In this document: piece by piece, positions 16,614 to 45,946 of the stretch
How positions within the stretch are numbered: the first letter of the stretch is position 1
Layout of the letters: each line of letters starts with the position of its first letter
NCBI GenBank assembly: GCA_943789455.1
Contig: CALSUE010000008.1
Coordinates: 11,907-75,906 of the forward strand
Direction of reading: 5' to 3'
From: an uncultured Flavobacteriaceae bacterium
GTDB lineage: Bacteria > Bacteroidota > Bacteroidia > Flavobacteriales > Flavobacteriaceae
DNA: 64,000 nt
Made by a program: the position numbers and the translations under genes
Notes under the pieces: generated by a model
Seen by the model: the letters and a program-made list of their open reading frames with translations, nothing else
The model's database searches: none
What the model was told of the DNA's origin: nothing

Positions 16614-17066
16614 CTATAAGACATGATCTATTGTAATTTCTTTTCCGTTCCAAGTAAAGGTGTCTTCAGCTTTTTTACCTACCAATAATTTGCCTATTGG
16701 CGAAGAGGAAGAAATGGCAAAATATACAGTTTCTTTATCTTTTAACTTTCCTGCAGAAATACTCAAAAAATAACATGTTGATGAGGTTTTTATAACAGAC
16801 CCTAAAGCAATGTTTGCTGAGGATGATAGGGTGTTAATTTTAGCTAGTGTTTGTTGCATTTGTTGAACAGCAGCTAATTGTTGCCCTGCTTTTTCCATTT
16901 CTAATTGTAACATTGCTCTGCCTGTTTCATGCTTATCTCCTGCAGAACTTTTAGTTTCTGAGCTCAATGCCTTTTGATGAGAAGAAATAATTGTCTGTAT
17001 GGTTTGAAGACGTGTATTTACAAAATCTTCACACTGTTGAAAAAGGGATTCTTTTAACGTTAACAT
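16614..17066 (-). CDS. GreA/GreB-like protein
   Basis: N-terminal coiled-coil hairpin with acidic tip (SSAGDKHETGRA); C-terminal AISSSSPIGKLLVGKKAED matches the Gre C-domain. Confidence 0.7.
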   Translation of the reverse strand: MLTLKESLFQQCEDFVNTRLQTIQTIISSHQKALSSETKSSAGDKHETGRAMLQLEMEKAGQQLAAVQQMQQTLAKINTLSSSANIALGSVIKTSSTCYFLSISAGKLKDKETVYFAISSSSPIGKLLVGKKAEDTFTWNGKEITIDHVL

Positions 17067-17069
17067 TAT

Positions 17070-17624
17070 TTAAGCCTGTAAAAATGAATACGCACCAAAC
17101 CTGCCATGGTGTGTAATTGAGCATGATGAGGTAAGAAGTGTTGTTTTATAATAATAACTAGGGGCCCCATTTTTTGATTTTTTTTGTTGAATTTCTGAAA
17201 TTTGTAATGCTGTTAATTCGTTAAGCTTGTTCTTAATCATTGTGTCAATTTGACCTGGAGATACCATTTCTGAATACGGACTCTTTTTATTTTCAAGAAC
17301 TGCAGTAGTAAAAACACAATCCTGATTTAGTGTTGTTCTTGTGTAAAAGTTTTGACCCTTGAAACTAACCACACCCTTGGAACCTCGTGTCAATTTACAT
17401 TCAAATTTTTTTGGAGCAAAAAACCGAATTTCATGGTGTTGTGTATAAATTTTGTAAGCAGCTTCCTTCATGCTCCAGAGCCTCCATACCATTTCAAAAG
17501 AATTTGATGCCTCTAGGATAAGTTGTTGCTCATCATTTGAAAACAGCTTTTCTAAAAACCCTTTTCGCTGCCAATTGCTTTGTGTTTTAGCAAGAGATAA
17601 ATCTATAATATCGTTACCAATCAA
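17070..17624 (-). CDS. 4'-phosphopantetheinyl transferase
   Basis: IGNDIID and WRLWSMKEAAYK motifs; TTG start overlapping the ACP stop. Confidence 0.92.
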   Translation of the reverse strand: MIGNDIIDLSLAKTQSNWQRKGFLEKLFSNDEQQLILEASNSFEMVWRLWSMKEAAYKIYTQHHEIRFFAPKKFECKLTRGSKGVVSFKGQNFYTRTTLNQDCVFTTAVLENKKSPYSEMVSPGQIDTMIKNKLNELTALQISEIQQKKSKNGAPSYYYKTTLLTSSCSITHHGRFGAYSFLQA

Positions 17625-17875
17625 GAGCTAGATAATTTTGTTTCAATAATGTCTAGGGCTGCTTTTACTGAAAGCATTTTTTCCATGGAATCATTATCAA
17701 TTTCAATATCAAATTCATCTTCTACATCTAAAATAACATCTACCAAATTCGCAGAATTGATTTTTAAATCGTTAATAAAATCTGTCTCTTCAGACAGGTT
17801 GTTAAATGCTTCTTCATCTTGAATATAAGGTTTTACAATTTTTTGTAGTGAGGCAATTAATTCTTCTCTAGTCAT
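17621..17875 (-). CDS. Acyl carrier protein (cluster-specific)
   Basis: Acidic 84-aa protein; DLKINSANLVDVILDVEDEFDIEI helix II, with the Ser in NS rather than DS. Confidence 0.9.
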   Translation of the reverse strand: MTREELIASLQKIVKPYIQDEEAFNNLSEETDFINDLKINSANLVDVILDVEDEFDIEIDNDSMEKMLSVKAALDIIETKLSSS

Positions 17876-17887
17876 ATATCCTTTAAT

Positions 17888-19156
17888 TTAATATTTTTTA
17901 AAAATAACACATCCATTTACATCTCCAAAGCCAAAACTTGCTTTTGCAATGATCTTTATTTTTTTTGATGTGTATTTCGTTGGTATTTTTTCTTTTGAAA
18001 TTAATTTTAAAATGTCTGGATGCACTTCTTCGCAATTAATATTTGGAAAGATAAATTGGTGTTTTAATTGCAATATTGTTGCCACATTTTCTATGGCTCC
18101 CGCAGCTGCAAGACAATGCCCAACCATAGATTTTAAAGAATTTATCATTGGAAAATTTTGCCCAGTTCTCCCTAAAGCTTTTGTCCAATTTTCTATTTCT
18201 ACAGGATCTTTTATAGTAGCAGTTAGATGCCCATTAATTGCATCTATTTCTGAAGCTGCTATGTTTGCATTTTTTATTGCATCTACAATACATTTTTGTA
18301 CGGCTTCAGAATTTGGTGCTGTCATCGTTCCGCCGTTTCGTTGTCCTCCAGAATTAATGTTTCCACCCAATACCTCGGCATAAATAGTTGCTTTTCTTTC
18401 CAAAGCACTCTCTAATGTTTCTAATACCATCGCACCAGCACCACTGCCAGGCACAAACCCTGATGCATCTGAACTCATGGGTCTAGACCCTTTTTCTGGG
18501 TTTTCGTTGTGTTTATAGGTCATCACTCGCATTGCATCAAATCCGCCCCATATATAGGCTCCATCATCACTACAACTTCCAACTAGCATTCTTTTTGCCT
18601 TTCCTGCCTGAACACGCTCAAAGCCCATGAGTAAAGCTTCTGTGCCAGTTGTACAAGCAGATGAGTTTGTGGTGACTTGATTTCCTACTCCTAGAATACC
18701 GCCCAAGTAAGCACTAATACCGCTTGCCATTGTTTGAACAACAACAGTGCTGCCTAATCTTTTTACTTTTTGATCGTCTAATTTATATACAGCCTCTCTA
18801 AATTTTTCTACTCCCGAGGTACCTGCCCCAAAGACCAATCCTGAGTCATAATCTACGGGTAAGCTTTTATCAATGTCAAAGCCTGCATCTTTCCATGCGT
18901 CTATGCCTGCAATACATCCATATAAAATTCCGGCACTATCAAATCCACGCAATTGTAGCGGTGTTAAATAGTTGTTTTTCATCTCTTCTGATACTGAAGG
19001 AATTCCTCCAATACAACAAGAAAATTTTAAATCTTGAAGTTTTTGATGAAATGTAATTCCAGATCTTCCTTCTTGAATTGCTGCTAAAAAATTATCTAAG
19101 CCAACTGCATTTGGTGCTACAACTCCCATCCCTGTAATGACAACTCTATGTTTCAT
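17888..19156 (-). CDS. Beta-ketoacyl-ACP synthase (FabF/B-like)
   Basis: VVITGMG; Cys in SSACTTG; His in NGHLTAT and GHCLAAAG; SFGFGDVN. Confidence 0.93.
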   Translation of the reverse strand: MKHRVVITGMGVVAPNAVGLDNFLAAIQEGRSGITFHQKLQDLKFSCCIGGIPSVSEEMKNNYLTPLQLRGFDSAGILYGCIAGIDAWKDAGFDIDKSLPVDYDSGLVFGAGTSGVEKFREAVYKLDDQKVKRLGSTVVVQTMASGISAYLGGILGVGNQVTTNSSACTTGTEALLMGFERVQAGKAKRMLVGSCSDDGAYIWGGFDAMRVMTYKHNENPEKGSRPMSSDASGFVPGSGAGAMVLETLESALERKATIYAEVLGGNINSGGQRNGGTMTAPNSEAVQKCIVDAIKNANIAASEIDAINGHLTATIKDPVEIENWTKALGRTGQNFPMINSLKSMVGHCLAAAGAIENVATILQLKHQFIFPNINCEEVHPDILKLISKEKIPTKYTSKKIKIIAKASFGFGDVNGCVIFKKY

Positions 19157-19598
19157 TATGCATTGATTTTAACATTCCTGAAATAGTTCCTCTACAAACC
19201 AGCTCATTTTTTTCATTAAACAATTCGACCTTACATTTTAGTTTATTAAATCTAAAATAAACTTTTTCTGAAATTACTTTTACACGTTCTTGGGGGTAAA
19301 CAGGTAAAAAGAAATCAATATGATTTGAGGTTAATGCAATTTGTGGTTTTTTTGTAGTAGAAATTTCATCTCTTAATAAGTATATTCCTAAACAAACCAC
19401 CCCAATTTGGGCCATTACTTCGGTTAAAATGACTCCAGGGGTTATTGGATTCTCTTTAAAATGACCTTGATAAAAATACTCGTCTTCTTTAAAGGTGTAA
19501 TATCCCTCGACACCGTGTTCTGATAGAGATATTACTTCATCTACAAACAAGAAGGGTGTTTGATAGGGTAAGAGCTGTATGATTTTTTTATGGTTCAA
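19146..19598 (-). CDS. 3-hydroxyacyl-ACP dehydratase (FabZ-like)
   Basis: LPYQTPFLFVD, GHFKENPITPGVILTEVMAQ; TTG start. Confidence 0.92.
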   Translation of the reverse strand: MNHKKIIQLLPYQTPFLFVDEVISLSEHGVEGYYTFKEDEYFYQGHFKENPITPGVILTEVMAQIGVVCLGIYLLRDEISTTKKPQIALTSNHIDFFLPVYPQERVKVISEKVYFRFNKLKCKVELFNEKNELVCRGTISGMLKSMHNET

Positions 19599-19603
19599 GT
19601 TGT

Positions 19604-20398
19604 TTAGCTTATGTGTTCTCCTCCATCTACAGGAATAATTGTACCATTAATCCAAGATGCTTCGTCTTTAGATAAAAGATAAACAACATTGGCAACGTCT
19701 TCTGGTACTGTTAATTTATGAAATGGATTGCGTAATAAAGAATGTTTTTTTATTTCATCGCTGCCAGGAATCATTCTTAAAGAAGCCGTGTCTGTAACTC
19801 CTGCTTGAATGCAATTTGCTCTAATTCCGAAGGGTGCATACTCTAAAGCAATATTTCTTGTAATTGCTTCTAGCGTTACTTTTGCTGCTGAAACAGCAGC
19901 ATAATTTTTCCATGCTTTCGAGTTTCCTTCACTAGTAAAGCTGATTACTCGCGCATCATCTGAAAATAATTTAGCTTCAAAAACAGCTTTGGTCCAATCA
20001 TACAAACTAACGCCCATTGCTTGTATTGTTAATTGGAAATCATCTGTCTGTAGTGTTGGAGTAGTTTTTGAAATCATGGGTTTTAAATTTCCCTTAGCTA
20101 CGCTGTGTACAAGTGTTTTTATAGCGCCACCATTTAGTTCTTTTTCTAAATCTTCTATCAATGCAGCTCTCTTTTCTGAATGAAAAGCATCTGTGTTATA
20201 CCTAATAAAATCTACCCCTTCTTTAGTAATTTTTTTAAATTCTTTTTCTATTTCTGCTTGTTGTGATCTAGAATTTCTATGTACAATACAAATATTCATT
20301 CCATGACGAGCTAACTTTTTCGCTGTTGCTAGACCTAAGCCGCTAGAGCCTCCTAAAATTAGAGCCCATTCATTTTTATCTTTAAATTCTTTTACCAT
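19604..20398 (-). CDS. Enoyl-ACP reductase (FabL-like SDR)
   Basis: GGSSGLG; YxxxxxxK (NYAAVSAAK) typical of enoyl reductases; VDGG. Confidence 0.8.
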   Translation of the reverse strand: MVKEFKDKNEWALILGGSSGLGLATAKKLARHGMNICIVHRNSRSQQAEIEKEFKKITKEGVDFIRYNTDAFHSEKRAALIEDLEKELNGGAIKTLVHSVAKGNLKPMISKTTPTLQTDDFQLTIQAMGVSLYDWTKAVFEAKLFSDDARVISFTSEGNSKAWKNYAAVSAAKVTLEAITRNIALEYAPFGIRANCIQAGVTDTASLRMIPGSDEIKKHSLLRNPFHKLTVPEDVANVVYLLSKDEASWINGTIIPVDGGEHIS

Positions 20399-21444
20399 TC
20401 TAATAGTATTCTTTGTGCAGAAAAGCCTGGCCCAAAACTTAGCATCAGTCCTTTTTCTCCAGGTTGTCTATCTCCATCCATAAATCGCTCTAAAACATAT
20501 AGTACGGTTGCACTAGACATATTTCCATACAATCGTAAAACCTCTTTTGTGTCATCAATATTCTTCCCTAAAGATCCAAATAAATCTTCTACTGTTTGAA
20601 CAATCTTCTTGCCTCCAGGGTGAAAAATTAAATGATTTATGTCTTCAATTGTTAAATTATTCCGTTCTAAAAAAGGGTGAACTATCATTGGAAAATGATT
20701 TGATATGGTTTCTGGAACTGATTTATCTAATATCATTTGTAAGCCTGAATTTACCAATTTAAACCCCATCATATGGGTTGAATTATAAAAATGATACATC
20801 GCTTCATCTATAATTTTTGGTCCTTTATCTTCTTCGTAAGATGATAAAATAACACTTGCTGCACCGTCACCAAAAATTGCAGCACTCACAATATTTACCA
20901 TGGAAAAATCTTCTAGCTGAAATGTTGCTGTTGGAGATTCTACTGCAACCACTGCCGCTCTTTTATTTGGGTTGGCTTTTAAAAAGTTTTTTGCATAAAT
21001 AATCCCTGAAACTCCAGCTGCACAACCCATTTCTGTAACTGGAAGCCTCACAACATCTTGTTTCATTTGCAAACTATTAATTAAATAAGCGTCTACAGAA
21101 GGGATCATAATTCCCGTACAGCTGACAGTTATTATATAGTCAATATCTGTGGGTTGTAAACTTGCTTTTTCTAAAGACTTTTTTAATGATTGTTCTGCCA
21201 AGGCTGTTACCTCTCTAGCATAGATATTGTTTTTTTCTTCAAAAGACGAATTTAAAAAAACCTCTTCTGCATCCATAATAGAATACCGCCTATCTACACC
21301 AGCCCCTTCAAAAAGTTTTAATACTTTTCGTTGAAACCTTTTTTCCTGACCTTGCATCCATAATTTCACAAATGGAATAATGTCTTTAGTTTCTCTAGTA
21401 TGTTTTGGTAGCTGTTTCGCTACAGATAATATTTTTACATTCAT
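20392..21444 (-). CDS. Type III polyketide synthase
   Basis: Catalytic triad MGCAAG / FHPGG / YGNMSSATVL; FGDGAA; SFGPG. Confidence 0.96.
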   Translation of the reverse strand: MNVKILSVAKQLPKHTRETKDIIPFVKLWMQGQEKRFQRKVLKLFEGAGVDRRYSIMDAEEVFLNSSFEEKNNIYAREVTALAEQSLKKSLEKASLQPTDIDYIITVSCTGIMIPSVDAYLINSLQMKQDVVRLPVTEMGCAAGVSGIIYAKNFLKANPNKRAAVVAVESPTATFQLEDFSMVNIVSAAIFGDGAASVILSSYEEDKGPKIIDEAMYHFYNSTHMMGFKLVNSGLQMILDKSVPETISNHFPMIVHPFLERNNLTIEDINHLIFHPGGKKIVQTVEDLFGSLGKNIDDTKEVLRLYGNMSSATVLYVLERFMDGDRQPGEKGLMLSFGPGFSAQRILLEW

Positions 21445-21472
21445 ATTATGAACTTTATAAGCAAAAATTCTT

Positions 21473-22195
21473 TTAATAAATCGTTTCTTTTTTCAACAGC
21501 CACAAGTAGCGAAAGGCCCATTTCCATTGAATTGAAAAACTTACATCTGCTTTTGTTAAGATCGTTTCTAATTCTTTTCTTTTAAAGGCTCTCAAAACAG
21601 AAGTTAAGCCGTCTTCTCTTACCATCTTGTTTTTAATAAATAATCCAATCAGTCTAAAAAGATAATACGCCATTTTATGCCTGTGTAAATCATTCACAAC
21701 AACACCAATTGATGCTTTTTGAACCGTCGATTTTAAAAAGGGTATCAAATCGTCGGTTTTAAAATGATGTAAAAACAAAGTGCATAAAACCACGTCAAAA
21801 TTTTGCTTTTTAAAATCTTGAGAAAAAATATCTATTGTGTCAAAACTTAATTCTGAATAGTCTTTAGAAAGCTCTCTAGCATACTCTATGGCAGCAGGAT
21901 TTGCATCAACCCCTAATAAGTTAAACTTATACTTATTTTTTCTACCAAACTTTGCAACATCTCTTAGGATATCTCCATGACCGCAGCCTAAATCTATAAT
22001 TGTAATTGTCTTCGTTTTTGTCTGTGTATCTAATAATTTTTTTAACCCTTTTATAGTTACTGAATTGCCCCCTAATAACCTGTTAATAATCTCCAATTTG
22101 TCTAATGTGTCTCTAAAATCAACTCCTTTAAGACTAAAGTCATCCATCATCTCTGTAGCTGAAGAACGGTGAGAAGTATCAACTAAAAAACTCAT
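21473..22195 (-). CDS. SAM-dependent methyltransferase of the type usually found with type III PKS
   Basis: EMMDD N-terminus, IIDLGCGHGD motif I, TLFLHHF, VNDLHR. Confidence 0.88.
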   Translation of the reverse strand: MSFLVDTSHRSSATEMMDDFSLKGVDFRDTLDKLEIINRLLGGNSVTIKGLKKLLDTQTKTKTITIIDLGCGHGDILRDVAKFGRKNKYKFNLLGVDANPAAIEYARELSKDYSELSFDTIDIFSQDFKKQNFDVVLCTLFLHHFKTDDLIPFLKSTVQKASIGVVVNDLHRHKMAYYLFRLIGLFIKNKMVREDGLTSVLRAFKRKELETILTKADVSFSIQWKWAFRYLWLLKKETIY

Positions 22196-23328
22196 AGTGG
22201 TTGTAACTGTTTTCCATGGGTAAATTTGATCATTTTAGGCAATAATGAAGGTATTCTTTTTAAAATTGAATATGCTATTTGAGAAAGCATTTGATTTCTA
22301 AACAACCAAGCAACAAAATGACCTGTTTTTAACCGTATTTTAAATTCTTTATTCCAATCTCTAATATACTGTTTTTCTAGAGCTGCTCTGGTTTTTATTT
22401 CGCCATTTAAGAATTGAAGTATTCGTATACTTGCCAATCGAGCGCTAGAAATAGCCATACCCATACCATTTCCACACAAGGGATGTATCATTCCGGCAGT
22501 ATCTCCACACATGATAATGTGATCTTCCACTGGGGTTTTTGTTTGAAAAGATATTTGGCTAATGGATAACGGTTGTTTAAAAATTGGGGTTGTTTCTTTA
22601 AATAATTTTCTAAGATATTCATTTTTAAAAACAACTTGATTTTGAAAATCTGTAATCGTTTTATGTTTTTTAAACAAACGGTATTCTGTAATATAACACA
22701 GGTTAATGGCGTTATTTTCAACTTTAGACACCCCGCAGTAGCCACCTTCAAAGTTATGTAAAGCAACTAAATCTTCCGGAAAGACTCCTTTTACATGAAT
22801 TTTTACGGCCAAATACGGTGATTTTTTTTGAAAAAATTTTCGGTTCATTTTTTTATCTAGTGAAGATCTTTTTCCAAAAGCACCAACTACAACCTTGCTT
22901 TGAAATACCTTGGCGTTTTTTGTTGTAATTGTAAAAGCATCTTCTTTAAAATGAATAGCCTCTACCGAATCTTTTAAAACCTGAACACCATTCAAGCGGG
23001 CTTTGTTCACTAACAGATCATCTAAAAAATAGCGACTCATTCCAAAACCTCCTAAGGGTAATTCTCCTTTTATTAGATTACTTTTTATAGTACTTATATG
23101 AACTTTAGTGATTTTTTTAGCACCATAATTTATTGGGTGGATGCCTAATGAATTTAAATAGGGCAATACTTCGTTAGAAATGTACTCTCCACATACTTTA
23201 TGTTTTGGATATTCGTTCTTTTCAACTAATAAAACCTGTTTGTTCTGTTTAGATAAATGAATAGCGCTTGTTAGCCCTGCCAAACCTCCTCCTACTATAA
23301 TTACATCAAATGCTCGTCTTTTTTTCAA
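22192..23328 (-). CDS. FAD-dependent oxidoreductase (geranylgeranyl-reductase / aromatic hydroxylase-like)
   Basis: GGGLAG, KVCGEYIS, GDTAGMIHPLCGNGMGMA; TTG start. Confidence 0.88.
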   Translation of the reverse strand: MKKRRAFDVIIVGGGLAGLTSAIHLSKQNKQVLLVEKNEYPKHKVCGEYISNEVLPYLNSLGIHPINYGAKKITKVHISTIKSNLIKGELPLGGFGMSRYFLDDLLVNKARLNGVQVLKDSVEAIHFKEDAFTITTKNAKVFQSKVVVGAFGKRSSLDKKMNRKFFQKKSPYLAVKIHVKGVFPEDLVALHNFEGGYCGVSKVENNAINLCYITEYRLFKKHKTITDFQNQVVFKNEYLRKLFKETTPIFKQPLSISQISFQTKTPVEDHIIMCGDTAGMIHPLCGNGMGMAISSARLASIRILQFLNGEIKTRAALEKQYIRDWNKEFKIRLKTGHFVAWLFRNQMLSQIAYSILKRIPSLLPKMIKFTHGKQLQPL

Positions 23329-23331
23329 TTG

Positions 23332-23865
23332 TTATTTAGTAGCAGAATACTCTACTTGAATTTTTACATTATTAGACAAAATAAAACTTCTATTTCCAAT
23401 ATCAAAGTTTTTACGATTTATCAGCATTGAAGCTTTTAATATTAGTCTTGAATTGTCTTCAAAAACTTCTAAGGGAATCTCCTCCTTCTTGGTAATTCCT
23501 TTGATACTTAACTCTGCAAAAAGAGTAATGTTACCATTCGTGTCCTTTGTAAGTTTAGAGGATTTAAGTGTGATTTTTTCATGATTTAAAGCATCAAAAT
23601 AATCTGTTTCTAATACGTGGTTATCTCTTGCTTCTATGCCTGTAAAAATAGAATTTACCATAATAGTCGCATTCAAATAGCTATTAGATAAATCTTTGGT
23701 GTCTAGATTTGTGTTTACATCTATGGTTTTAAAGCCACCATCTACAGTGAGTCCGAAATTTTTAATTTTAAATGAAACACGGGTTTGTTCTTTATCTTGA
23801 ATCCATTCTTGAGAGAATAGGTTCATGGTAATTAAAATCAATAATAGGGGTAGTTTTTTGAACAT
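23332..23865 (-). CDS. YceI family polyisoprenoid/lipid-binding protein, secreted
   Basis: Signal peptide; VSFKIKNFGLTVDGGF, SIFTGIEARDNH, INRKNFDIG. Confidence 0.85.
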   Translation of the reverse strand: MFKKLPLLLILITMNLFSQEWIQDKEQTRVSFKIKNFGLTVDGGFKTIDVNTNLDTKDLSNSYLNATIMVNSIFTGIEARDNHVLETDYFDALNHEKITLKSSKLTKDTNGNITLFAELSIKGITKKEEIPLEVFEDNSRLILKASMLINRKNFDIGNRSFILSNNVKIQVEYSATK

Positions 23866-23884
23866 TTCTTAAAGTAATTTTAAT

Positions 23885-24994
23885 TTAATCAAGCAAATCC
23901 GCTAACTCTTTTCCGACTAATGAACCGATAGCAACACCCATGCCACCCAAACGGATTCCGCAGTAAGTATGCTCTGATAGTTGTTTTACAATAGGTTTTT
24001 TCTGATTTCCAACTCCCATAATTCCACTCCAGCGGTGTGTAATTTCAAACTCATTATTTGGTAAAATAATTGTTTTTAAAAGTGATTCTAACTTATTTTG
24101 AATACGGTTGGTTTGACCAAATTGAGTAGTTTCTTCTGTTTTAAAATCTAAATTCCTTCCACCTCCTAATAATATTCTATTGTCAATATTTCTAAAATAG
24201 TAATAGCCTTCATCTAAGTGAAACGTTCCTTTAATGTGTAAATCTTTTATGGGGGAAGTAATCAATACTTGAGCTCTTGCTGGAGCTATATTTTCGTCTA
24301 GAAGTTTTTTTGAAAAACCATTGGTTGCAAAAAATAATTTAGATGCTGAAACCTCCCCTTGATTTGTTGTAATGTTTATTTGATTGGCCTCTTCAGAAAA
24401 GTCTAAAACAGTCGTGTTATTTATGACCTTGACCCCCTTTTCATATGCTGTTTTTAACAGCTGTGAAATCATTTTACCTGCATCTATCTGAGCTTCAAAT
24501 TTATTAACCAGGTAGGATGGAACCGTATTTTGAAAATTAAATTTATTTTGAGCCGTAGAAAACACATTAGCATTAAAAAGAGGAAATAATAATTGATTTA
24601 ACTCCTCTGTTTTGTTTTTGCATGCTTCAAATAAAGTTTCATTAAAAAACAATTCGTATCCACCGTGTTGTTGGTAATCAATATTCTTATCTCCTAATAG
24701 GTTTCTAAGAATTTGTAAGCCCTCCCATCTCTTTTTTACCAACTGAAAAACCTCTTGCTTTGAGTGAGTCTTTAGATCGCTTAATAGTTCTGAGGTACTG
24801 CCAAAACAAGCAAAACCAGCGTTTTTTGTACTTGCGCCTTGTGGCAATAAACCCTTTTCTAAAACTAAAACTTTTGATTTTGGAAAACGTTCTTTTAAAT
24901 GAATTGCACAACTTAAACCAACTATTCCACTTCCAACAACAACAAAATCATTGTTAGCAAACCACTCTTTATATTCCCAATAACTGTAATTCAT
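23885..24994 (-). CDS. FAD-dependent oxidoreductase, DAO/PuuB-like
   Basis: GSGIVG, GASTKNAG, WSGIMG, GGMGVAIG. Confidence 0.85.
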   Translation of the reverse strand: MNYSYWEYKEWFANNDFVVVGSGIVGLSCAIHLKERFPKSKVLVLEKGLLPQGASTKNAGFACFGSTSELLSDLKTHSKQEVFQLVKKRWEGLQILRNLLGDKNIDYQQHGGYELFFNETLFEACKNKTEELNQLLFPLFNANVFSTAQNKFNFQNTVPSYLVNKFEAQIDAGKMISQLLKTAYEKGVKVINNTTVLDFSEEANQINITTNQGEVSASKLFFATNGFSKKLLDENIAPARAQVLITSPIKDLHIKGTFHLDEGYYYFRNIDNRILLGGGRNLDFKTEETTQFGQTNRIQNKLESLLKTIILPNNEFEITHRWSGIMGVGNQKKPIVKQLSEHTYCGIRLGGMGVAIGSLVGKELADLLD

Positions 24995-25443
24995 TATATT
25001 AATTTTTCAAAGCAATTACTGTCATCCATTTGGGCATACTGACCGTAATTTGGAATGCTTTTATATCCAGATTTTTTATAAAAGTTTATTGCTGCTACTT
25101 GGTTATTTCCTGTCTCTAAGATACATTTTATAAATCCTTTTTCTGAGGCCCAATCTTCAAGGGAGTTTAAAATAGAACTGGCAATTTTAGTGCCTCTGTG
25201 TTCTTTTTTTACATACATCCTTTTTACTTCAACAGTATTTACATCAAACGCTCTAAAAGCTCCACAACCAATAGCATTTTTTCCTTGGTAAGCAATTACT
25301 ACATTTTTTATTTTTTCCAAAGTATTGAACTGGTTGTAAAACTCATGATCATCTCCATCTGTTATCTTTAAATAAGCATCTAACTCAAATATTAATCCTC
25401 TGAAATCAGTATTCTTACTATTTGTTCTGATGATATTTATCAT
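24994..25443 (-). CDS. GNAT acetyltransferase
   Basis: VEVKRMYVKKEHRG, LETGNNQVAAINFY. Confidence 0.88.
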   Translation of the reverse strand: MINIIRTNSKNTDFRGLIFELDAYLKITDGDDHEFYNQFNTLEKIKNVVIAYQGKNAIGCGAFRAFDVNTVEVKRMYVKKEHRGTKIASSILNSLEDWASEKGFIKCILETGNNQVAAINFYKKSGYKSIPNYGQYAQMDDSNCFEKLI

Positions 25444-25479
25444 GTAACATGTTTATAGGTTTTGCCGTTTAATGAAAAC

Positions 25480-25487
25480 CAAAAGTA
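25480..25487 (-). promoter_or_regulatory. -7 promoter box heading the 12-gene PKS operon
   Basis: TACTTTTG in the 53-bp dinB-GNAT gap. Confidence 0.6.
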
Positions 25488-39781: not shown

Positions 39782-40348
39782 ATGGACATCCACCAACATT
39801 TTATTTTTCATAAACCTTACGGAACAATATCACAATTTGTAAATCCTCACAAAAGACAAAAAAAATTATTAGGAGCATTTTTTAATTTTCCTGATAAAAC
39901 AATGGCAATTGGTAGACTGGATGTAAACTCTGAAGGACTTCTTTTATTAACAACTAACGGTAAGGTAAGTGAAGAAATAAGAAGTAAAAAAGTAGAAAAA
40001 GAATATTATGTTCAACTAGATGGTTGTATTACACAAGAAGATATTAATATTTTAAAAAGTGGTGTAATTATTGGATTTAAAGGGGAGAAATATACGACTA
40101 AGCCCTGTAAATCTTCTTTAATACCTGTTCCAAATTTTAAAGATAGAACACAAAAAATTAGAGATGAAAGGCATGGGCCAACAAGCTGGATCTCTATTAC
40201 TTTAAAAGAAGGTAAATTTAGACAAGTAAGAAAAATGACAGCAGCTGTTGGTTTTCCTACATTACGATTAATAAGAATCAGAGTAGGATCTATTCTATTA
40301 AAAAATTTAAAACTTGGTGAAGTTAAAGAAGTACCTAGTTTCTTTTAA
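39782..40348 (+). CDS. rluE: rRNA pseudouridine synthase (RluE-like)
   Basis: GRLDVNSEGLLLLT, EGKFRQVRKMTAAVGFPTLRLIR. ATG 39782 preferred. Confidence 0.8.
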   Translation: MDIHQHFIFHKPYGTISQFVNPHKRQKKLLGAFFNFPDKTMAIGRLDVNSEGLLLLTTNGKVSEEIRSKKVEKEYYVQLDGCITQEDINILKSGVIIGFKGEKYTTKPCKSSLIPVPNFKDRTQKIRDERHGPTSWISITLKEGKFRQVRKMTAAVGFPTLRLIRIRVGSILLKNLKLGEVKEVPSFF

Positions 40349-40785
40349 GTTTTAAGCATTTTAATATGAGGAATACCGTCTTCTAAATATTCTTCTCCTA
40401 CTCGAATAAAGCCTAATGAATTATAAAATTTAGTAAGATATGATTGTGCAGAGATAAGAATAGTGTTTTGTTGGAAATTATTTTCTATAAATTGTATAGA
40501 ATTTACAACTAACTTATATCCATATTGAAATTTTCTAAATTCTTTTTTTACAACGATTCTTCCAATACTTGATTCTAAAAAATAATCACCGGGTTTAAAT
40601 ATTCTTGCATATGCTACTATTTTAGTATCTAAAACACCTAACACATGATACGCATCTAAGTCTTTATTATCAAGATCTTGATAAACACAATCTTGCTCTA
40701 CTACAAAAACTTCAGCTCTAAGTTGTAAGATGACATACAACTCCTGGATTGATAATTCATTAAACCTTTTAATAGTAAAGATCAT
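40345..40785 (-). CDS. elaA: ElaA-like GNAT acetyltransferase
   Basis: LRAEVFVVEQDCVYQDLD, ISAQSYL, EDGIPHIKM. Confidence 0.88.
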   Translation of the reverse strand: MIFTIKRFNELSIQELYVILQLRAEVFVVEQDCVYQDLDNKDLDAYHVLGVLDTKIVAYARIFKPGDYFLESSIGRIVVKKEFRKFQYGYKLVVNSIQFIENNFQQNTILISAQSYLTKFYNSLGFIRVGEEYLEDGIPHIKMLKT

Positions 40786-40787
40786 AT

Positions 40788-41219
40788 TTAACAAGCTGGT
40801 ATTTTATTAACCCTATTTTGATGTCTTCCTCCTTCAAAATCTGTTTCTAAAAATGTTTCTACCATTTTTAATGCTTGAGGAATTGATGTATATCTTGCTG
40901 GGATACATAAAATATTAGCATTATTATGTTGTCTAATTAAGGCCACAATTTCTTTAGACCAACATAAACCTGCTCTTACTTCTTTGTATTTATTTGCGGT
41001 CATAGCAACACCATTAGCGCTCCCACATAATAATATTCCATAGTGTGCTTTATTTAAAACAACATCTTTTGCTACCGGATGTACAAAATCTGGATAATCT
41101 ACACTATCGTGAGAATCAGTACCATAATTTTTAACAACTATACCTTTCGATTCTAACAATTTAATAATCTCAAATTTATATGCTGTAGCAGCATGATCAT
41201 TCCCTATAGAAATATTCAT
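40788..41219 (-). CDS. rpiB: Ribose-5-phosphate isomerase B
   Basis: GNDHA, DYPDF, CGSANG, HNNAN, FEGGRH. Confidence 0.96.
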   Translation of the reverse strand: MNISIGNDHAATAYKFEIIKLLESKGIVVKNYGTDSHDSVDYPDFVHPVAKDVVLNKAHYGILLCGSANGVAMTANKYKEVRAGLCWSKEIVALIRQHNNANILCIPARYTSIPQALKMVETFLETDFEGGRHQNRVNKIPAC

Positions 41220-41747
41220 AATAAGTTGGTTTTTATGCTTTTAATAGCAACAAAAATACAAATACATATGGTTATCAACAGGTTTAAAAAGTAATTTTAT
41301 ATTTTAATTAATAACTACTTATTTATTAGTTAGTTAACATCATTTTTATAATTGTTTAAAAGTATAGGTAAGTTTTAAAAAATAGATTTGATTTATCCAT
41401 TTTTATTTACAATACATATTCATTTATCACATACACAATAAAAACTATTATTTTTTAATTACTTCTTATAAACATTATTTACCTATAATTTTTATACTTA
41501 TTAACTTTTATTTAATTAAAAAAAAGCTGTTTATAGTTGTTTATAAGTAGTGTTAATAAATAGTATTTTTCTTTATTTTAAAGGAAAAAATATATAATAA
41601 AATGTGTATTATTTTTAATAAATAACAAATCAAAAAAAAAAACAAGTTTTCTCTATTAACTATTCACATGCTATTATAACTAACAAATGTTTTAATTTTA
41701 AATTAAAAAAAAAGTAATTATAATATAGATTGTTAATAAAGTTATCT
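41220..41747. other. Candidate replication origin (oriC)
   Basis: 528-bp non-coding gap with very few G/C bases. DnaA-box-like nonamers: TTATCAACA 41272, TTATAAACA 41466, TTATTAACT 41498, CTATTCACA 41660; on the minus strand CTATAAACA 41528, TTATAAACA 41538, TTATTAACA 41551 and 41731. parS sites lie about 12 kb away. Confidence 0.7.
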
Positions 41748-42677
41748 TCAATTAATTACAAATTGAATTGCTTCTTGAAAAATAGTTACTTTTAAAGAAC
41801 CATACCCTATTATTTCACCATCTGCTTCAATAATTGATTCACAATTATTTGTAATTGTTATTTCTTTAGTTTTATAAGTAACTACTTTTTTATGATATAC
41901 AATGTTTCCATTATATAATTTAGGAAGATTAAAAAGTAAATCTAGAATTGAAAAATTTTTAACAATAGTAATATCTAGTAAACCATCTATTGGATTTGGT
42001 TTTTTTGTAATTCTTAAACCTCCTCCTGAATATTTACAGATTCCAAATACAATCATTAAACATTGCTCATGAATTGTTTCTGATTTACTAGTAATACTGT
42101 ATTTTTTTGTATTGTAAGAGAATAAACTATATAATCCACTTAATAAAAATGCTATAGATCCTACCTTTTTTAAATACTTTAAGTTTTTAACAACATAACC
42201 GTCGTATCCTATTCCTGCTAGATTATTAAAATATTCTTTCTTTCCATTTAATAATGTTATACAGCCTATATCTTGTAAAATTGTAGTATTTTTTTTAATT
42301 ATTTCAATTGATTTTTCAATAGAATTAGGAATATTATATGTTTTTATCCAATCATTACCTGTGCCTATCGGAATTATACCAAGTTTAATTTTAGATGTTT
42401 TTATATATTTTTGCATCATTATTCCGTTTACAATATGATGTAAAGTTCCATCACCTCCAACAGAAATAATATTTCTATACCCTTTTTTTATACCCTCTTT
42501 AGTAAGTATAACTTCATGTTTCGTATATTCAGTAAAAGCATAAGAATATTGAATATTATTTAATTTTAGTAAATATTGAATTTTATTCCACGATTTTTTA
42601 AAATTCTTATTTCCAGCGAAAGGGTTAATAATTAAATACCATTTATGTATCTCAACAGGTTGGTTCAAATCATACAT
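41748..42677 (-). CDS. Diacylglycerol/lipid kinase (YegS/DAGK family)
   Basis: NPFAG, GGDGTLH, PIGTGNDW, EADGE. Confidence 0.93.
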   Translation of the reverse strand: MYDLNQPVEIHKWYLIINPFAGNKNFKKSWNKIQYLLKLNNIQYSYAFTEYTKHEVILTKEGIKKGYRNIISVGGDGTLHHIVNGIMMQKYIKTSKIKLGIIPIGTGNDWIKTYNIPNSIEKSIEIIKKNTTILQDIGCITLLNGKKEYFNNLAGIGYDGYVVKNLKYLKKVGSIAFLLSGLYSLFSYNTKKYSITSKSETIHEQCLMIVFGICKYSGGGLRITKKPNPIDGLLDITIVKNFSILDLLFNLPKLYNGNIVYHKKVVTYKTKEITITNNCESIIEADGEIIGYGSLKVTIFQEAIQFVIN

Positions 42678-42753
42678 AAAAATTAAATTAATAAGCTATT
42701 AAAATGATAAAAAATAAGTACTTTACTAAATATAATAAAATAAAGAAAGTAGT

Positions 42754-44949
42754 ATGAGTAGAAAGAAAAAAATCTACAAGAAGAAAGGTAGTGTTATTAA
42801 AAATTTAACAAGAGATATTTTTAAAATATTTAATAATGATAGCTCTAAATATTATAATTATAAACAAATCGCTAGTAAACTAGGAGTTACAAATCCAGAT
42901 GGTAAAACACAGATACTTAAAAAACTAGCCGAATTAAAAGAAACAAAAAAAATAAAGGAAGTTGATAGAGGAAAATATCAAATTATTATCGATAAAAAAT
43001 ATCACATTGGTACTTTAGATATTACTTCAAATGGTAATGGATATTTTATATCAGATGATTTTGAAAAAGATATTTTTATTCCTTCTAATAATTTAGGAAA
43101 AGGCTTACAGAATGATACAGTAAAAGCTTATGTATATAAAAGAAATCGTAGCAATAAACTAGAGGCAGACATCATAGAAATTATAGAAAGAGATAAAACT
43201 ACTTTTGTAGGTGTACTTCAAATGAGTAAAAACTTTGGTTTTGTATTATGTGATAATCAAAAAATGTATGCAGATATTTTTATTTCTAAAGCAAGAGTAA
43301 ATGGTGCTGAACACGGAGATAAAGTTCAAGTAAATATAACCGATTGGCCAGAAAACTCAAAAAATCCTTTTGGTAAAATAACACAAGTTTTAGGTAAGCC
43401 AGGAGATCATAATACTGAAATACATTCTATTTTATTAGAATATGGTTTACCTTATAAATTTGATCAAGAAGTTGAAAAAGATGCAGGTAGTTTGTCATTA
43501 GAAATTACAAAAGAAGAGATTTCTAAAAGAAGAGATATGCGGGCGGATTTAACCTTTACAATTGATCCTAAAGATGCTAAAGATTTTGATGATGCTTTAT
43601 CTTTTACGAAGTTAGAAAACGGAAATTATGAAATAGGTATTCATATTGCTGATGTTTCTCATTATGTTCAACCAAATACTATTTTAGATAAAGAAGCATA
43701 TAATAGAGCAACATCTGTATATTTAGTAGATAGAGTTGTTCCTATGTTACCTGAAATCTTATCTAATGGTGCATGTTCTTTGAGACCTAATGAAGAAAAA
43801 CTAACTTTTTCAGCTGTTTTTGAGATTAATGAAAATGCTCAGATTTTAAATGAATGGTTTGGAAGAACGGTTACTTATTCTGATAAACGATTTGCTTATG
43901 AAGAAGCACAGGTTATTATAGAAACAGAGAAAAATTTTATACCTGACAATACTTCTATAACAAATGAATCTTATTATGTTCCTGATACTATAGTTGAAGC
44001 TACACTAAAGTTGAATGCATTAGCAAAAATTCTTAGAAAGAAAAGGATGAAAGAAGGGGCAATATCTTTTGATAGAGTTGAGGTTAAGTTTAATTTAGAT
44101 GAGAATGCAAATCCAACAGGTGTATTTTTTAAAGAATCAAAAGACGCTAATAAGTTAATAGAAGAGTTTATGCTATTAGCAAATAGAAAAGTTGCTGAAT
44201 TTATAGGTAAAGAAAAAAGTAAACCAACCAATAAAACTTTTATATATAGAGTTCATGATGAGCCAGACATAGAAAAACTAGCAGCTTTACAAAATATAGT
44301 TTATAATTTTGGTTATAAGATGAACACACTTACTAGAGAGAGTACAACAGAAAGTTTAAATAAATTATTAAATGATGTTCATGGTAAGCCAGAGTCTAAT
44401 ATGATAGAAACCTTAGCAATTAGAACAATGAGTAAAGCTGTTTATACAACCAATAATATTGGTCATTATGGATTAGCTTTTGATTATTATTCTCATTTTA
44501 CATCTCCAATTCGTCGTTATCCAGATGTTATGACACATCGTTTATTACAGTATTATTTAGAGGGAGGTAAATCTCCAAATCAAGATGATTATGAAACTAA
44601 ATGTAAACACTCATCTAAACAAGAGGAATTAGCATCTAAAGCTGAAAGACAGTCTATAAAGTATATGCAAGTAAAATATATGCAAGATCATAAAGATGAA
44701 GAATTTTCTGGAGTTATATCAGGTGTTACAGAATGGGGAATTTATGTTGAAATTACTTCAAATAAATGTGAAGGTATGGTAAGAATAAGAGATATAAAAA
44801 GTGATTATTATATTTTCGATGAAAAACAATTTGCTATTATTGGTCAATCTACTAAGCACGTCTATCAGTTAGGAGATTTTGTTACGGTAAAAGTTAAACA
44901 TACAGATTTAGAAAGAAAACATTTAGATTTTACTCTTATAGAGCAATAG
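42754..44949 (+). CDS. rnr: Ribonuclease R
   Basis: TIDPKDAKDFDDA, HFTSPIRRYPD, C-terminal S1 domain. Confidence 0.97.
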   Translation: MSRKKKIYKKKGSVIKNLTRDIFKIFNNDSSKYYNYKQIASKLGVTNPDGKTQILKKLAELKETKKIKEVDRGKYQIIIDKKYHIGTLDITSNGNGYFISDDFEKDIFIPSNNLGKGLQNDTVKAYVYKRNRSNKLEADIIEIIERDKTTFVGVLQMSKNFGFVLCDNQKMYADIFISKARVNGAEHGDKVQVNITDWPENSKNPFGKITQVLGKPGDHNTEIHSILLEYGLPYKFDQEVEKDAGSLSLEITKEEISKRRDMRADLTFTIDPKDAKDFDDALSFTKLENGNYEIGIHIADVSHYVQPNTILDKEAYNRATSVYLVDRVVPMLPEILSNGACSLRPNEEKLTFSAVFEINENAQILNEWFGRTVTYSDKRFAYEEAQVIIETEKNFIPDNTSITNESYYVPDTIVEATLKLNALAKILRKKRMKEGAISFDRVEVKFNLDENANPTGVFFKESKDANKLIEEFMLLANRKVAEFIGKEKSKPTNKTFIYRVHDEPDIEKLAALQNIVYNFGYKMNTLTRESTTESLNKLLNDVHGKPESNMIETLAIRTMSKAVYTTNNIGHYGLAFDYYSHFTSPIRRYPDVMTHRLLQYYLEGGKSPNQDDYETKCKHSSKQEELASKAERQSIKYMQVKYMQDHKDEEFSGVISGVTEWGIYVEITSNKCEGMVRIRDIKSDYYIFDEKQFAIIGQSTKHVYQLGDFVTVKVKHTDLERKHLDFTLIEQ

Positions 44950-45023
44950 AATTATTTTTTTTTAGTTATTTAATTAAGTAAAATTTTTAAAAATTGTAAT
45001 AATTTATATCTTGTAGCTAAAAA

Positions 45024-45701
45024 ATGAAAAATAGTATAATTACATTTCTTTTAATTACGAGCATTTCTTCGTTTTCTCAAAAAATCATCACAAAAAAAAT
45101 AGAAGATTTTTATAAAATTAAAGTTTACAATGGAATACGCCTTGAATTACTTCAATCTAATGAAAGTAAATTAGAAATTTCAGGAGACAAAGCAGATAAA
45201 ATTAAAATTAAGAATACAGAGGGTATCTTAAGAATTAGTTTGCGTTTTCCTGAGTTACTAGCGGGCGATAAAGTTAATGTTAAGTTGTTTTACAATAAAG
45301 ACATTCAAACTATAGATGGAAATGAGGGTTCAAAAATAATAGGAAAAGCAATTAATCAAACACATTTAGAGGTAAAGGCTCAAGAAGGAGCCTCTATAAA
45401 GTTAGATATTAAAACAAAACACTTAAAAGTTAAATCAGTAACGGGTGGTGTTATAGATCTTACGGGTACATCAAAAAATCAAGATATTGAACTTGATTTA
45501 TATGGGGTATATCATGGATACAATCTTTTTACTTCAAACAGTAGTACAGTAAAAGCGGGAACAGGTTCAAAAGCAGAGGTCTATGCTGGTGAAACCTTAT
45601 TCGCGAAAGTTAGCTTCGGTGGCTCAATTCTATATAAAGGAAAGCCAGAAGTTATCAAAAATAAAAAGATGGCAGGAGGAATTATAAAACAAATGAATTA
45701 A
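45024..45701 (+). CDS. Head GIN domain / DUF2807 beta-helix protein, secreted
   Basis: Signal peptide; repeated GS/GA beta-solenoid segments ending ILYKGKP. Confidence 0.75.
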   Translation: MKNSIITFLLITSISSFSQKIITKKIEDFYKIKVYNGIRLELLQSNESKLEISGDKADKIKIKNTEGILRISLRFPELLAGDKVNVKLFYNKDIQTIDGNEGSKIIGKAINQTHLEVKAQEGASIKLDIKTKHLKVKSVTGGVIDLTGTSKNQDIELDLYGVYHGYNLFTSNSSTVKAGTGSKAEVYAGETLFAKVSFGGSILYKGKPEVIKNKKMAGGIIKQMN

Positions 45702-45719
45702 TTCATTGAAACGTTTTTG

Positions 45720-45727
45720 TATATTTG
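45720..45727 (+). promoter_or_regulatory. -7 promoter box for tatA
   Basis: TATATTTG. Confidence 0.6.
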
Positions 45728-45746
45728 TATATCAAAATTTAAATAA

Positions 45747-45941
45747 ATGACTTTAAATATTTTTTTATTAGGAATGCCAAGCCCTCTTTCTATGGCTCTT
45801 ATTGTTGGGGCATTATTACTTTTATTTGGAGGAAAAAAAATACCTGAATTAATGAAAGGTATTGGTGGCGGTATTAAAGAGTTTAAAAAAGCTTCAAAGG
45901 ACGATAAAAAGAACGAAGAAAAAATAGAAGAAAAGAAATAA
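45747..45941 (+). CDS. tatA: Twin-arginine translocase TatA
   Basis: [26 protein letters not shown]. Confidence 0.93.
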
Positions 45942-45946
45942 AATAT

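What the first reader, a model, noticed from the sequence alone, without database searches (positions are those of the whole stretch)
16614..25487. Orphan hybrid cluster: type III PKS with a private type II FAS-like module and tailoring enzymes
Seen: 12 same-strand genes with overlaps or gaps under 30 bp behind one -7 box, in the order GNAT, DAO-like oxidoreductase, YceI, FAD oxidoreductase, SAM methyltransferase, type III PKS, enoyl reductase, dehydratase, KS, ACP, PPTase, Gre-like. The catalytic residues I could check (PKS, KS, DH, ER) are intact. Known: PKS + methyltransferase + flavoprotein trios make alkylresorcinols and alkylquinones (Streptomyces griseus SrsABC; mycobacterial polyketide quinones act as alternative electron carriers), and Azotobacter Ars feeds its type III PKS from a dedicated type I FAS. 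Inference: here a dedicated type II module builds the starter, giving a flavobacterial phenolic lipid or alkylquinone distinct from the flexirubin DarAB route. I know of no characterised product.
Basis: partly seen in the sequence, partly recalled or inferred. Interest (0 to 1): 0.78.

Follow-up and report, generated by a model that had tools for sequence, protein, structure and literature searches.

The report
Orphan flavobacterial phenolic-lipid gene cluster

Summary
Twelve minus-strand genes (16614-25443) have gaps of -11 to +28 bp behind one TAnnTTTG box, and every domain call and catalytic residue was verified.

The type III PKS and the FAS-like genes are one inherited unit. In 301 Flavobacteriaceae genomes, 107 of 109 PKS carriers also have the special ketosynthase, and none of 192 non-carriers does.

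The unit is nine genes here (17070-23865: YceI, flavoprotein, methyltransferase, PKS, FabL-type enoyl reductase, FabZ-type dehydratase, KS, ACP, PPTase), not twelve. A same-genus genome without the PKS has Gre-like and DAO 29 bp apart, so GNAT, DAO and Gre-like are backbone.

The universal core is seven genes. The enoyl reductase is present in only about a third of the clusters. The FAS set has no ketoreductase or acyltransferase and must borrow the housekeeping FabG and FabD.

The cluster is common, and it also occurs in Pedobacter. antiSMASH surveys already count it as "T3PKS". I found no characterised product.

The closest known systems are hidABC, srsABC and pkqABC (tailoring trio) and Azotobacter ArsABCD (FAS-to-PKS hand-off). 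This is a new variant of a known kind, of moderate interest.

The parts
25480..25487 (-). -7 promoter box TACTTTTG of the host operon. It is the only gene-proximal one for the whole 12-gene run.
24994..25443 (-). GNAT acetyltransferase. A backbone gene, not part of the cluster.
   Evidence: Pfam match. In the related loci it was seen only where dinB is also present. It is present next to DAO in the PKS-less genome L182.
23885..24994 (-). DAO-family FAD oxidoreductase. A backbone gene that forms a conserved pair with the Gre-like gene.
   Evidence: Pfam DAO at 154 bits. It lies 29 bp from Gre-like in L182, and the pair is also found in L183 and L184.
23332..23865 (-). YceI-like protein with an N-terminal signal-like sequence. 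First gene of the inserted block. An accessory member, proposed to bind or escort the lipid.
   Evidence: Pfam YceI at 93.7 bits. Absent from the empty site. Found at either end of the cluster in marine genera.
22192..23328 (-). Flavoprotein of the GG-reductase / group A monooxygenase fold. Core tailoring enzyme, proposed ring hydroxylase.
21473..22195 (-). SAM-dependent methyltransferase, PRK06202-like. Core tailoring enzyme.
20392..21444 (-). Type III polyketide synthase with triad C141/H275/N308 and a clade-invariant F228.
19604..20398 (-). FabL-type enoyl reductase (Y166-x6-K173). An accessory member, present in about one third of orthologous clusters.
19146..19598 (-). FabZ-type 3-hydroxyacyl dehydratase (H46, E60). 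Core member.
17888..19156 (-). Elongating ketosynthase, FabF/FabB-like (C168/H310/H347). It is 31.5% identical to the genome's housekeeping FabF. Core member.
17621..17875 (-). Dedicated acyl carrier protein (S41). It is 39% identical to housekeeping AcpP. Core member.
17070..17624 (-). Dedicated AcpS-type phosphopantetheinyl transferase. Last gene of the inserted block. Core member.
16614..17066 (-). Gre/Gfh1-fold protein with an invariant coiled-coil tip loop. A backbone gene, not specific to the cluster.

Best explanation
Window 17070-23865 (minus strand) is a nine-gene biosynthetic block. It sits inside an older GNAT-DAO-Gre-like operon and is transcribed from that operon's promoter. The proposed pathway runs as follows.

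1. The dedicated PPTase activates the dedicated ACP.
2. Housekeeping FabD loads malonate on to that ACP.
3. The private ketosynthase condenses a fatty acyl primer from the general pool with malonyl-ACP. This moves the chain on to the private carrier and lengthens it.
4. Each round is completed by housekeeping FabG, the private FabZ-type dehydratase, and either the private FabL-type enoyl reductase or, in lineages without it, the housekeeping one.
5. The type III PKS takes the acyl chain from the ACP, adds malonyl-CoA units (three, by analogy) and cyclises the product to an alkylresorcinol-type ring.
6. The methyltransferase and the flavoprotein then decorate the ring. The result would be a methylated, further oxidised phenolic lipid of hydroquinone/quinone or methoxyphenol type.
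7. The secreted YceI-like protein may bind or escort the lipid in the envelope.

Shown here: gene content, intact catalytic residues, co-inheritance of the two halves, the cluster boundaries, and the second-copy status of KS, ACP, DH and PPTase. Inferred by analogy: every chemical step, the hand-off from ACP to PKS, and the product.
For: - **Domains and catalytic residues** are confirmed.
- **Co-occurrence.** In 301 Flavobacteriaceae genomes, mostly one per genus, 109 have a PKS orthologue. Of these, 107 also have a KS orthologue, and none of the 192 non-carriers has one. Fisher p is about 1e-80.
- **Fixed gene order.** FADox-MT-PKS-(ER)-DH-KS-ACP-PPT recurs across 165 loci from Polaribacter, Tenacibaculum, Psychroserpens, Lacinutrix, Winogradskyella, Formosa, Gelidibacter, Flavobacterium and Pedobacter.
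- **Co-evolution.** PKS and KS pairwise identities correlate at r = 0.92.
- **Specificity to this PKS clade.** Other Bacteroidota type III PKSs are at most 38% identical and have no KS, ACP or DH next to them. Some carry only the flavoprotein and methyltransferase.
- **Boundaries.** The same-genus genome G179 has Gre-like and DAO 29 bp apart, with nothing between them.
- **Housekeeping genes exist elsewhere in the genome:** acpP-fabF, fabZ, fabD, fabG and a second PPTase.
- **Long-chain or ACP-fed relatives.** The best solved relatives of the PKS are M. tuberculosis Pks11, THNS and CylI. Pks11 makes alkylpyrones (PMC6274091) and CylI receives a carrier-bound chain from type I PKSs (PMC8086630).
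- **Flavoprotein fold.** The closest folds are enzymes that act on phenolic rings (PltM, Bmp2, RadH, 3HB6H, UbiI, PHBH).
- **Published precedents.** ArsA's ACP domain passes its chain to ArsB and ArsC, and germicidin synthase uses acyl-ACP starters (PMC6274091). Methyltransferase/oxidoreductase/PKS operons make modified alkylresorcinols (PMC10896814, PMC8086630, PMC9927152).
Against: - There is no ketoreductase, acyltransferase or thioesterase in the cluster, so the FAS set cannot run alone.
- The enoyl reductase is absent from about two thirds of orthologous clusters.
- G187 keeps FADox-MT-PKS-ER but has no private KS, ACP or DH anywhere. In G248 the halves lie 355 kb apart, with the ER on the PKS side. 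The PKS can therefore work without the private module, and the ER may not serve chain elongation.
- At the position I align to CHS G256 / ArsB W281, this clade has an invariant Phe, where other Bacteroidota enzymes have Trp. The type of cyclisation is therefore uncertain.
- The flavoprotein cannot be separated by sequence or fold from GG reductases and halogenases.
- There are no metabolite or expression data.
Confidence: 0.6

Rival explanations
1. The cluster architecture is as described, but the PKS lactonises instead of performing an aldol cyclisation. The product would then be an alkylpyrone (possibly methylated), as for ArsC, Pks11/Pks18, BpsA and the Negativicutes enzyme.
For: The best solved relative is Pks11, whose PDB name is "alpha-pyrone synthesis polyketide synthase-like" and which makes methylated alkylpyrones (PMC6274091). 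The Trp linked to resorcinol formation in ArsB and PkqA is replaced here by Phe in all 166 orthologues (PMC6274091, PMC9927152).
Against: Phe is still bulky, unlike the Gly of the pyrone-forming ArsC. The conserved flavoprotein-plus-methyltransferase pair is the hallmark of the resorcinol-derived Srs, Pkq and Hid pathways (PMC9927152, PMC8086630, PMC10896814). My residue equivalence is an inference from alignment and was not tested.
Confidence: 0.2
2. The KS-ACP-DH-PPTase half does not supply the PKS starter. It would make a separate lipid, or modify the chain after or beside the PKS, and be linked to the PKS only by shared regulation or a shared final product.
For: G187 has the PKS half without the KS half. 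In G248 the halves are 355 kb apart. No ketoreductase or acyltransferase accompanies the KS.
Against: Co-occurrence is 107 of 109 against 0 of 192. The gene order is fixed and translationally coupled (overlaps of 4-11 nt). Identities correlate at r = 0.92. Both halves were transferred together to Pedobacter.
Confidence: 0.1
3. The flavoprotein is not a ring hydroxylase. It would be a halogenase, or a C=C reductase of the geranylgeranyl-reductase type. The product would then be halogenated or side-chain-reduced, not quinone-like.
For: The top fold matches are the phenol and pyrrole halogenases PltA, Bmp2, FasV, RadH and PltM. The best sequence family is the GG-reductase superfamily, at 106 bits, with an invariant K-V-C-G-E motif.
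Against: No WxWxIP-type halogenase motif occurs in any of 156 orthologues. The TIGR02032 score is below that model's cut-off of 158.8 bits. Aromatic hydroxylases score as well as the halogenases. The homologous flavoproteins of the simple PKS trios are proposed (for SrsC, reported) to oxidise or hydroxylate the ring (PMC9927152).
Confidence: 0.12
4. All twelve genes, including GNAT, DAO and Gre-like, form one pathway.
For: They share a strand, tight spacing and a single promoter box. DAO and Gre-like lie next to the cluster in many genera, although on varying sides.
Against: The order ...Gre-like, DAO, GNAT, dinB... is intact in a same-genus genome without the PKS. The DAO-Gre-like pair also occurs in G155, and in G024 it lies 2.2 Mb from the PKS. 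Gre-like is in 221 of 301 genomes, against 109 for the PKS. GNAT was seen only in loci that also hold dinB. Flavobacterium and Pedobacter clusters show none of the three within the 6-kb flanks fetched.
Confidence: 0.05

Closest known systems
hidABC (hierridin B/C, Cyanobium and other marine picocyanobacteria) and the planctomycetal mtr-fdo-t3pks operon (Gimesia maris and others)
   Same: [quoted passage not shown] The 'Saltatorellus ferox' variant also carries a lipid/isoprenoid-binding protein, as the YceI-like gene does here. Gimesia fdo shows the same K-V-C-G and G-D-x-A-G...P..G.GM motifs when the paper's sequence is read by eye.
   Different: Those operons have no KS, ACP, DH, ER or PPTase. 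The gene order there is MT-Ox-PKS, and here it is Ox-MT-PKS. Direct comparison was inconclusive because the only sequences available were machine-read and frameshifted. MT matched at 29% over 77 aa, and FADox matched only transitively through a Bacteroidota trio protein.
srsABC (Streptomyces griseus) / pkqABC (Mycobacterium smegmatis, Streptomyces sp. MNU77) alkylquinone ('polyketide quinone') operons
   Same: The logic is the same: PKS plus methyltransferase plus oxidoreductase or hydroxylase, giving an alkylresorcinol, then an alkyl-hydroquinone or quinone (PMC9927152).
   Different: These are actinobacterial and have no private FAS genes. The PKS there has Trp at the ArsB-281 position, where this clade has Phe.
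Azotobacter vinelandii ArsABCD
   Same: A dedicated fatty acid synthase encoded beside type III PKSs hands its ACP-bound chain directly to the PKS (PMC6274091).
   Different: ArsA and ArsD are multidomain type I FAS proteins, complete with all reductive domains. Here the proteins are discrete, type II-like and incomplete. Ars has two PKSs and no methyltransferase or flavoprotein.
CylI (cylindrocyclophane pathway) and germicidin synthase Gcs
   Same: Both are type III PKSs that accept carrier-protein-bound acyl chains (PMC8086630, PMC6274091). CylI is among the four best solved relatives of this PKS, at 1.5e-42.
   Different: CylI is fed by type I PKS modules. Gcs is fed by the housekeeping FAS. 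Neither has a private discrete KS/ACP/DH set.
Mycobacterium tuberculosis Pks11
   Same: It is the best solved sequence relative (E 1e-48, alignment covering residues 12-350), and it makes long-chain alkylpyrones (PMC6274091).
   Different: Different cluster context. The cavity residue Trp there is Phe here.

Membership tests
Type III polyketide synthase (CHS/STS superfamily) | Chal_sti_synt N and C domains score above the Pfam cut-off | tested here: met
   70.6 and 69.7 bits against a cut-off of 27
Type III polyketide synthase (CHS/STS superfamily) | Cys-His-Asn catalytic triad | tested here: met
   C141/H275/N308 are invariant in 166 of 166 orthologues and align to the triad region of Pks11, THNS and CylI
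Srs/Pkq/Hid-type phenolic-lipid operon | Type III PKS, SAM methyltransferase and FAD oxidoreductase are adjacent and co-directional | tested here: met
   22192-23328, 21473-22195 and 20392-21444, with a 4-nt overlap and a 28-nt gap. The trio is conserved in all complete orthologous loci.
Srs/Pkq/Hid-type phenolic-lipid operon | The methyltransferase and oxidoreductase are homologues of HidA/HidB or SrsB/SrsC | tested here: inconclusive
   They are 32-44% identical to the MT and FADox of simple Bacteroidota PKS trios. Against OCR-damaged Gimesia maris sequences, MT matched at 29% over 77 aa (E 3e-7). FADox matched only via a trio protein. No Hid, Srs or Pkq sequences were available.
Srs/Pkq/Hid-type phenolic-lipid operon | The PKS forms an alkylresorcinol | not testable with these tools
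   There is only an indirect residue argument: F228 at the position inferred to equal ArsB W281
Dissociated (type II) fatty acid synthase | Elongating KS with Cys-His-His, ACP with the phosphopantetheine Ser, and FabZ/FabA dehydratase with His and Glu | tested here: met
Dissociated (type II) fatty acid synthase | Enoyl-ACP reductase | tested here: met
   FabL-type, with Y-x6-K, and the best PDB match is 3OIC. It is met in this window only: 56 of about 165 orthologous loci have it.
Dissociated (type II) fatty acid synthase | 3-Ketoacyl-ACP reductase and malonyl-CoA:ACP transacylase are in the set | tested here: not met
   Neither is among the 12 genes. The only FabG and FabD over their cut-offs lie elsewhere, at C1:534942 and C7:103930. 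The set is therefore not a complete FAS.
Ars-type FAS-to-type III PKS hand-off | A dedicated FAS is encoded with, and co-inherited with, the PKS | tested here: met
   107 of 109 against 0 of 192
Ars-type FAS-to-type III PKS hand-off | The FAS is a multidomain type I protein (ArsA/ArsD) | tested here: not met
   The proteins are discrete, of 84-422 aa
Ars-type FAS-to-type III PKS hand-off | Direct acyl transfer from the ACP to the PKS cysteine | not testable with these tools
   Needs an in vitro assay
Flavin-dependent halogenase | WxWxIP motif | tested here: not met
   0 of 156 orthologues, despite the top fold matches
Gre-factor family (GreA/GreB/Gfh1), for the 16614-17066 product | N-terminal antiparallel coiled coil plus a C-terminal globular domain | tested here: met
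   pLDDT 93.6, with helices at 4-39 and 47-75 followed by a beta domain. Foldseek matches are Gfh1 3AOI_X (TM 0.68), GreA 9A7T_B and GreB 2P4V_A. The Pfam sequence score of 23 bits is below the cut-off of 26.9.

The most novel reading that the evidence does not exclude
A discrete, partial type II FAS set (KS, ACP, DH, PPTase, with or without ER) hands a custom acyl chain directly to a type III PKS. This wiring has not been described for any characterised pathway. The product would be a new family of phenolic lipids or polyketide quinones that serves a core membrane role in about a third of Flavobacteriaceae genera, including bloom-forming Polaribacter, Formosa and Tenacibaculum. That role could be an alternative electron carrier, an antioxidant, or cold or envelope adaptation.
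Probability: 0.35. Interest if true: 0.7.

Novelty: new variant of a known kind. Interest (0 to 1): 0.55.

Why it matters
The PKS is about as conserved across genera as glutamate dehydrogenase (83-86% against 84-86% between this genome and Polaribacter). The cluster sits in ecologically dominant marine polysaccharide degraders. Its lipid is therefore probably physiologically important, yet it is unknown. Identifying it would add a lipid class to flavobacterial membranes. It would also test whether polyketide quinones exist outside actinobacteria. And it would give a third solution for feeding type III PKSs, a private type II set, beside the type I FAS of Azotobacter and the housekeeping FAS used by germicidin synthase. 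For genome mining, the result fixes the true boundaries: a seven-gene core, nine genes here.

Tried and rejected
2. The search for homologous proteins with the KS returned only near-identical marine metagenome proteins (85-96% identity) and gave no wider view.
3. The TIGR00516 acpS model finds nothing in this genome or in the Bacteroides control, so it is uninformative. Pfam PF01648 was used instead.
4. The DAO protein has no solved relative at E<=1e-8.
5. A direct comparison with the experimentally studied Gimesia maris mtr and fdo genes failed. The supplementary sequences are machine-read and carry many frameshifts.
6. The halogenase reading of the flavoprotein was considered after the fold search and set aside for lack of the WxWxIP motif.
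7. Gre-like as a cluster-specific regulator was rejected. It occurs in 221 of 301 genomes and in the empty site.
8. The twelve-gene pathway was rejected.
9. antiSMASH, MIBiG, BiG-SCAPE and cblaster were not available. tblastn synteny tables over 187 loci stood in for them.

Full report
**1. Observation**

The window has twelve consecutive minus-strand ORFs from 25443 down to 16614. The gaps between them run from -11 to +28 bp.

A Bacteroidetes -7 box, TACTTTTG, lies at 25487-25480, 37 nt upstream of the first ORF. No other copy lies within 150 nt upstream of any of the twelve starts. At the window's motif density, about 0.04 copies would be expected in the 53-bp spacer.

The SDR carries Y166-x6-K173, and its best solved relative is B. 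subtilis FabL. "Enoyl reductase" is therefore correct, and ketoreductase is not.

The Gre-like call rested on 23 bits of sequence similarity. A pLDDT 93.6 model has the full Gre architecture and matches Gfh1, GreA and GreB.

**2. Is the FAS-like set private?**

The 2.23-Mb genome also has the following housekeeping genes:
- an acpP-fabF pair on contig C5 (KS 31.5% identical, ACP 39% identical to the cluster's copies)
- fabZ on C1
- fabD on C7
- fabG on C1
- a second PPTase on C3

The cluster's KS, ACP, DH and PPTase are therefore extra, divergent copies. The KS is equally distant from FabB and FabF structures. The cluster holds no ketoreductase, no acyltransferase and no chain-length factor.

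**3. Co-conservation**

The PKS has hundreds of relatives at 82-98% identity in Polaribacter, Psychroserpens, Lacinutrix, Winogradskyella, Tenacibaculum, Formosa and Gelidibacter.

In an even sample of 301 Flavobacteriaceae genomes, 109 have an orthologue of at least 56% identity. Of these, 107 also have the KS orthologue. None of the 192 PKS-negative genomes has it. Fisher p is about 1e-80.

Across Bacteroidota, orthologues occur only in Flavobacteriaceae and in Pedobacter, where identity is 70-72%. All other type III PKSs are at most 38% identical and have no KS, ACP or DH beside them. A few have only the flavoprotein and methyltransferase.

Pedobacter PKSs are 81-83% identical to those of freshwater Flavobacterium species, which suggests transfer of the whole cluster.

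PKS and KS pairwise identities correlate at r = 0.92. Catalytic residues are conserved in essentially every orthologue.

**4. Boundaries**

The architecture count over 165 loci gives a universal core of FADox-MT-PKS-DH-KS-ACP-PPT. The ER is present in 56 loci, all from marine genera. YceI is found at either end of the cluster in some marine genera.

The same-genus genome G179 lacks the PKS. It has ABC(+), Gre-like, DAO, GNAT, dinB, gdh and pheS in the window's order, with Gre-like and DAO 29 bp apart. G155 shows the same DAO-Gre-like pair. In G024 the pair lies 2.2 Mb from that genome's PKS.

Gre-like is in 221 of 301 genomes. In the related loci, GNAT was seen only where dinB is also present.

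The biosynthetic block here is therefore 17070-23865, nine genes. It is embedded in a pre-existing GNAT-DAO-Gre-like operon and has no promoter box of its own near its first gene.

Polaribacter has the cluster at the same site, so G179 most likely lost it.

**5. Variants that qualify the model**

G187 has DAO-Gre-FADox-MT-PKS-ER and then nothing. It has no KS orthologue anywhere in a 99%-complete genome.

G248 has FADox-MT-PKS-ER at one place and DH-KS-ACP 355 kb away.

The PKS half can therefore stand alone, and the ER goes with the PKS half. In my sample, each complete locus of this PKS clade had the ER, the KS set, or both.

**6. Chemistry, all inferred**

The best solved relatives of the PKS are Pks11, THNS and CylI. 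Pks11 makes long-chain alkylpyrones (PMC6274091) and CylI receives a carrier-bound chain from type I PKSs (PMC8086630).

By my alignment, one position equals CHS G256, and hence ArsB W281 / ArsC G284. Published work identifies that residue as the resorcinol/pyrone switch (PMC6274091, PMC9927152). At this position the clade has an invariant Phe (166 of 166), while the other Bacteroidota enzymes sampled have Trp. Phe is bulky like Trp, which favours aldol cyclisation but does not prove it.

The flavoprotein scores best against the GG-reductase superfamily, though below that model's cut-off. It has an invariant K-V-C-G-E motif.

Its pLDDT 87.9 model is closest to phenol and pyrrole halogenases and to aromatic hydroxylases. 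It lacks the halogenase WxWxIP motif in all 156 orthologues. I take it to be a ring-modifying oxygenase by analogy with SrsC/PkqC (hydroxylase/oxidoreductase, PMC9927152) and HidB, with moderate confidence.

The methyltransferase matches PRK06202 at 154 bits, below its cut-off.

**7. Literature**

antiSMASH surveys count T3PKS as about 9-11% of Flavobacteriaceae clusters but name no product (PMC7440613, PMC10734526).

The characterised relatives are:
- hidABC (PMC8086630)
- the planctomycetal operons (PMC10896814)
- srsABC and pkqABC (PMC9927152)
- ArsABCD and germicidin synthase, for ACP-borne starters (PMC6274091)

Six full-text searches found no study of the flavobacterial or Pedobacter cluster.

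A direct sequence test against the Gimesia maris genes was spoiled by OCR frameshifts.

**8. Earlier notes of this scan**

These notes describe the same cluster in at least eight other genomes, with similar readings. I treated them as leads only.

One claim, a four-gene short form, I confirmed independently in G187. Two others, an MMPL-exporter variant and a SAR324 analogue, I did not test.

**9. Verdict**

This is a real, strongly selected and widespread cluster.

It is a new variant of a known kind. Its interest is moderate and rests on the unknown product and the untested type II-to-type III hand-off.

Noticed in passing
window 16614-17066 (-) and 23885-24994 (-); L182:9956-11541, L183:9908-11458, L184:9433-11002: A Gre/Gfh1-fold protein has an invariant coiled-coil tip loop, E-T-K-S-S-A-G-D-K-H-E-T-G-R-A-M. 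It forms a conserved gene pair with a DAO-family FAD oxidoreductase, independently of the PKS cluster, and is present in 221 of 301 Flavobacteriaceae genomes. NCBI names some members '3-oxoacyl-ACP synthase', which the fold contradicts. Its function is unknown.
   Followed up: partly
L101-L180: Pedobacter (Sphingobacteriaceae, a different order) carries the seven-gene core. Its PKS is 81-83% identical to those of freshwater Flavobacterium species. This suggests lateral transfer of the whole cluster between orders.
   Followed up: partly
record titles: Carriers are strikingly rich in cold-adapted taxa: Polaribacter, Psychroserpens, Gelidibacter, Lacinutrix, Flavobacterium frigoris, F. glaciei, F. 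psychrolimnae and F. frigidarium, and Pedobacter cryoconitis and P. psychrodurus. The lists are ranked by identity to the query, so this may be a sampling effect. It is a lead for a cold or membrane role.
   Followed up: no
window 20392-21444 (-), residue F228: The FAS-linked PKS clade has an invariant Phe where Pks11 and 14 of the 15 other Bacteroidota type III PKSs sampled have Trp (motif MGF instead of MGW). I infer this position to be the ArsB W281 / ArsC G284 cyclisation switch.
   Followed up: partly
L185 (G187:C62) and L186/L187 (G248:C1): There is a four-gene short form (FADox-MT-PKS-ER, with no private KS/ACP/DH in the genome). There is also a split form with the halves 355 kb apart. 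In both, the FabL-type reductase stays with the PKS half.
   Followed up: yes
window 40001-46000: G+C content drops to 0.24-0.28, against about 0.31-0.35 elsewhere in the window. An earlier first-reader note proposes an oriC at 41220-41747.
   Followed up: no
genome contig C3:56040-56255 (outside the window): This is the only other PF01648 PPTase in the genome, presumably the housekeeping one. The TIGR00516 acpS model finds nothing in this genome or in the Bacteroides thetaiotaomicron control.
   Followed up: partly
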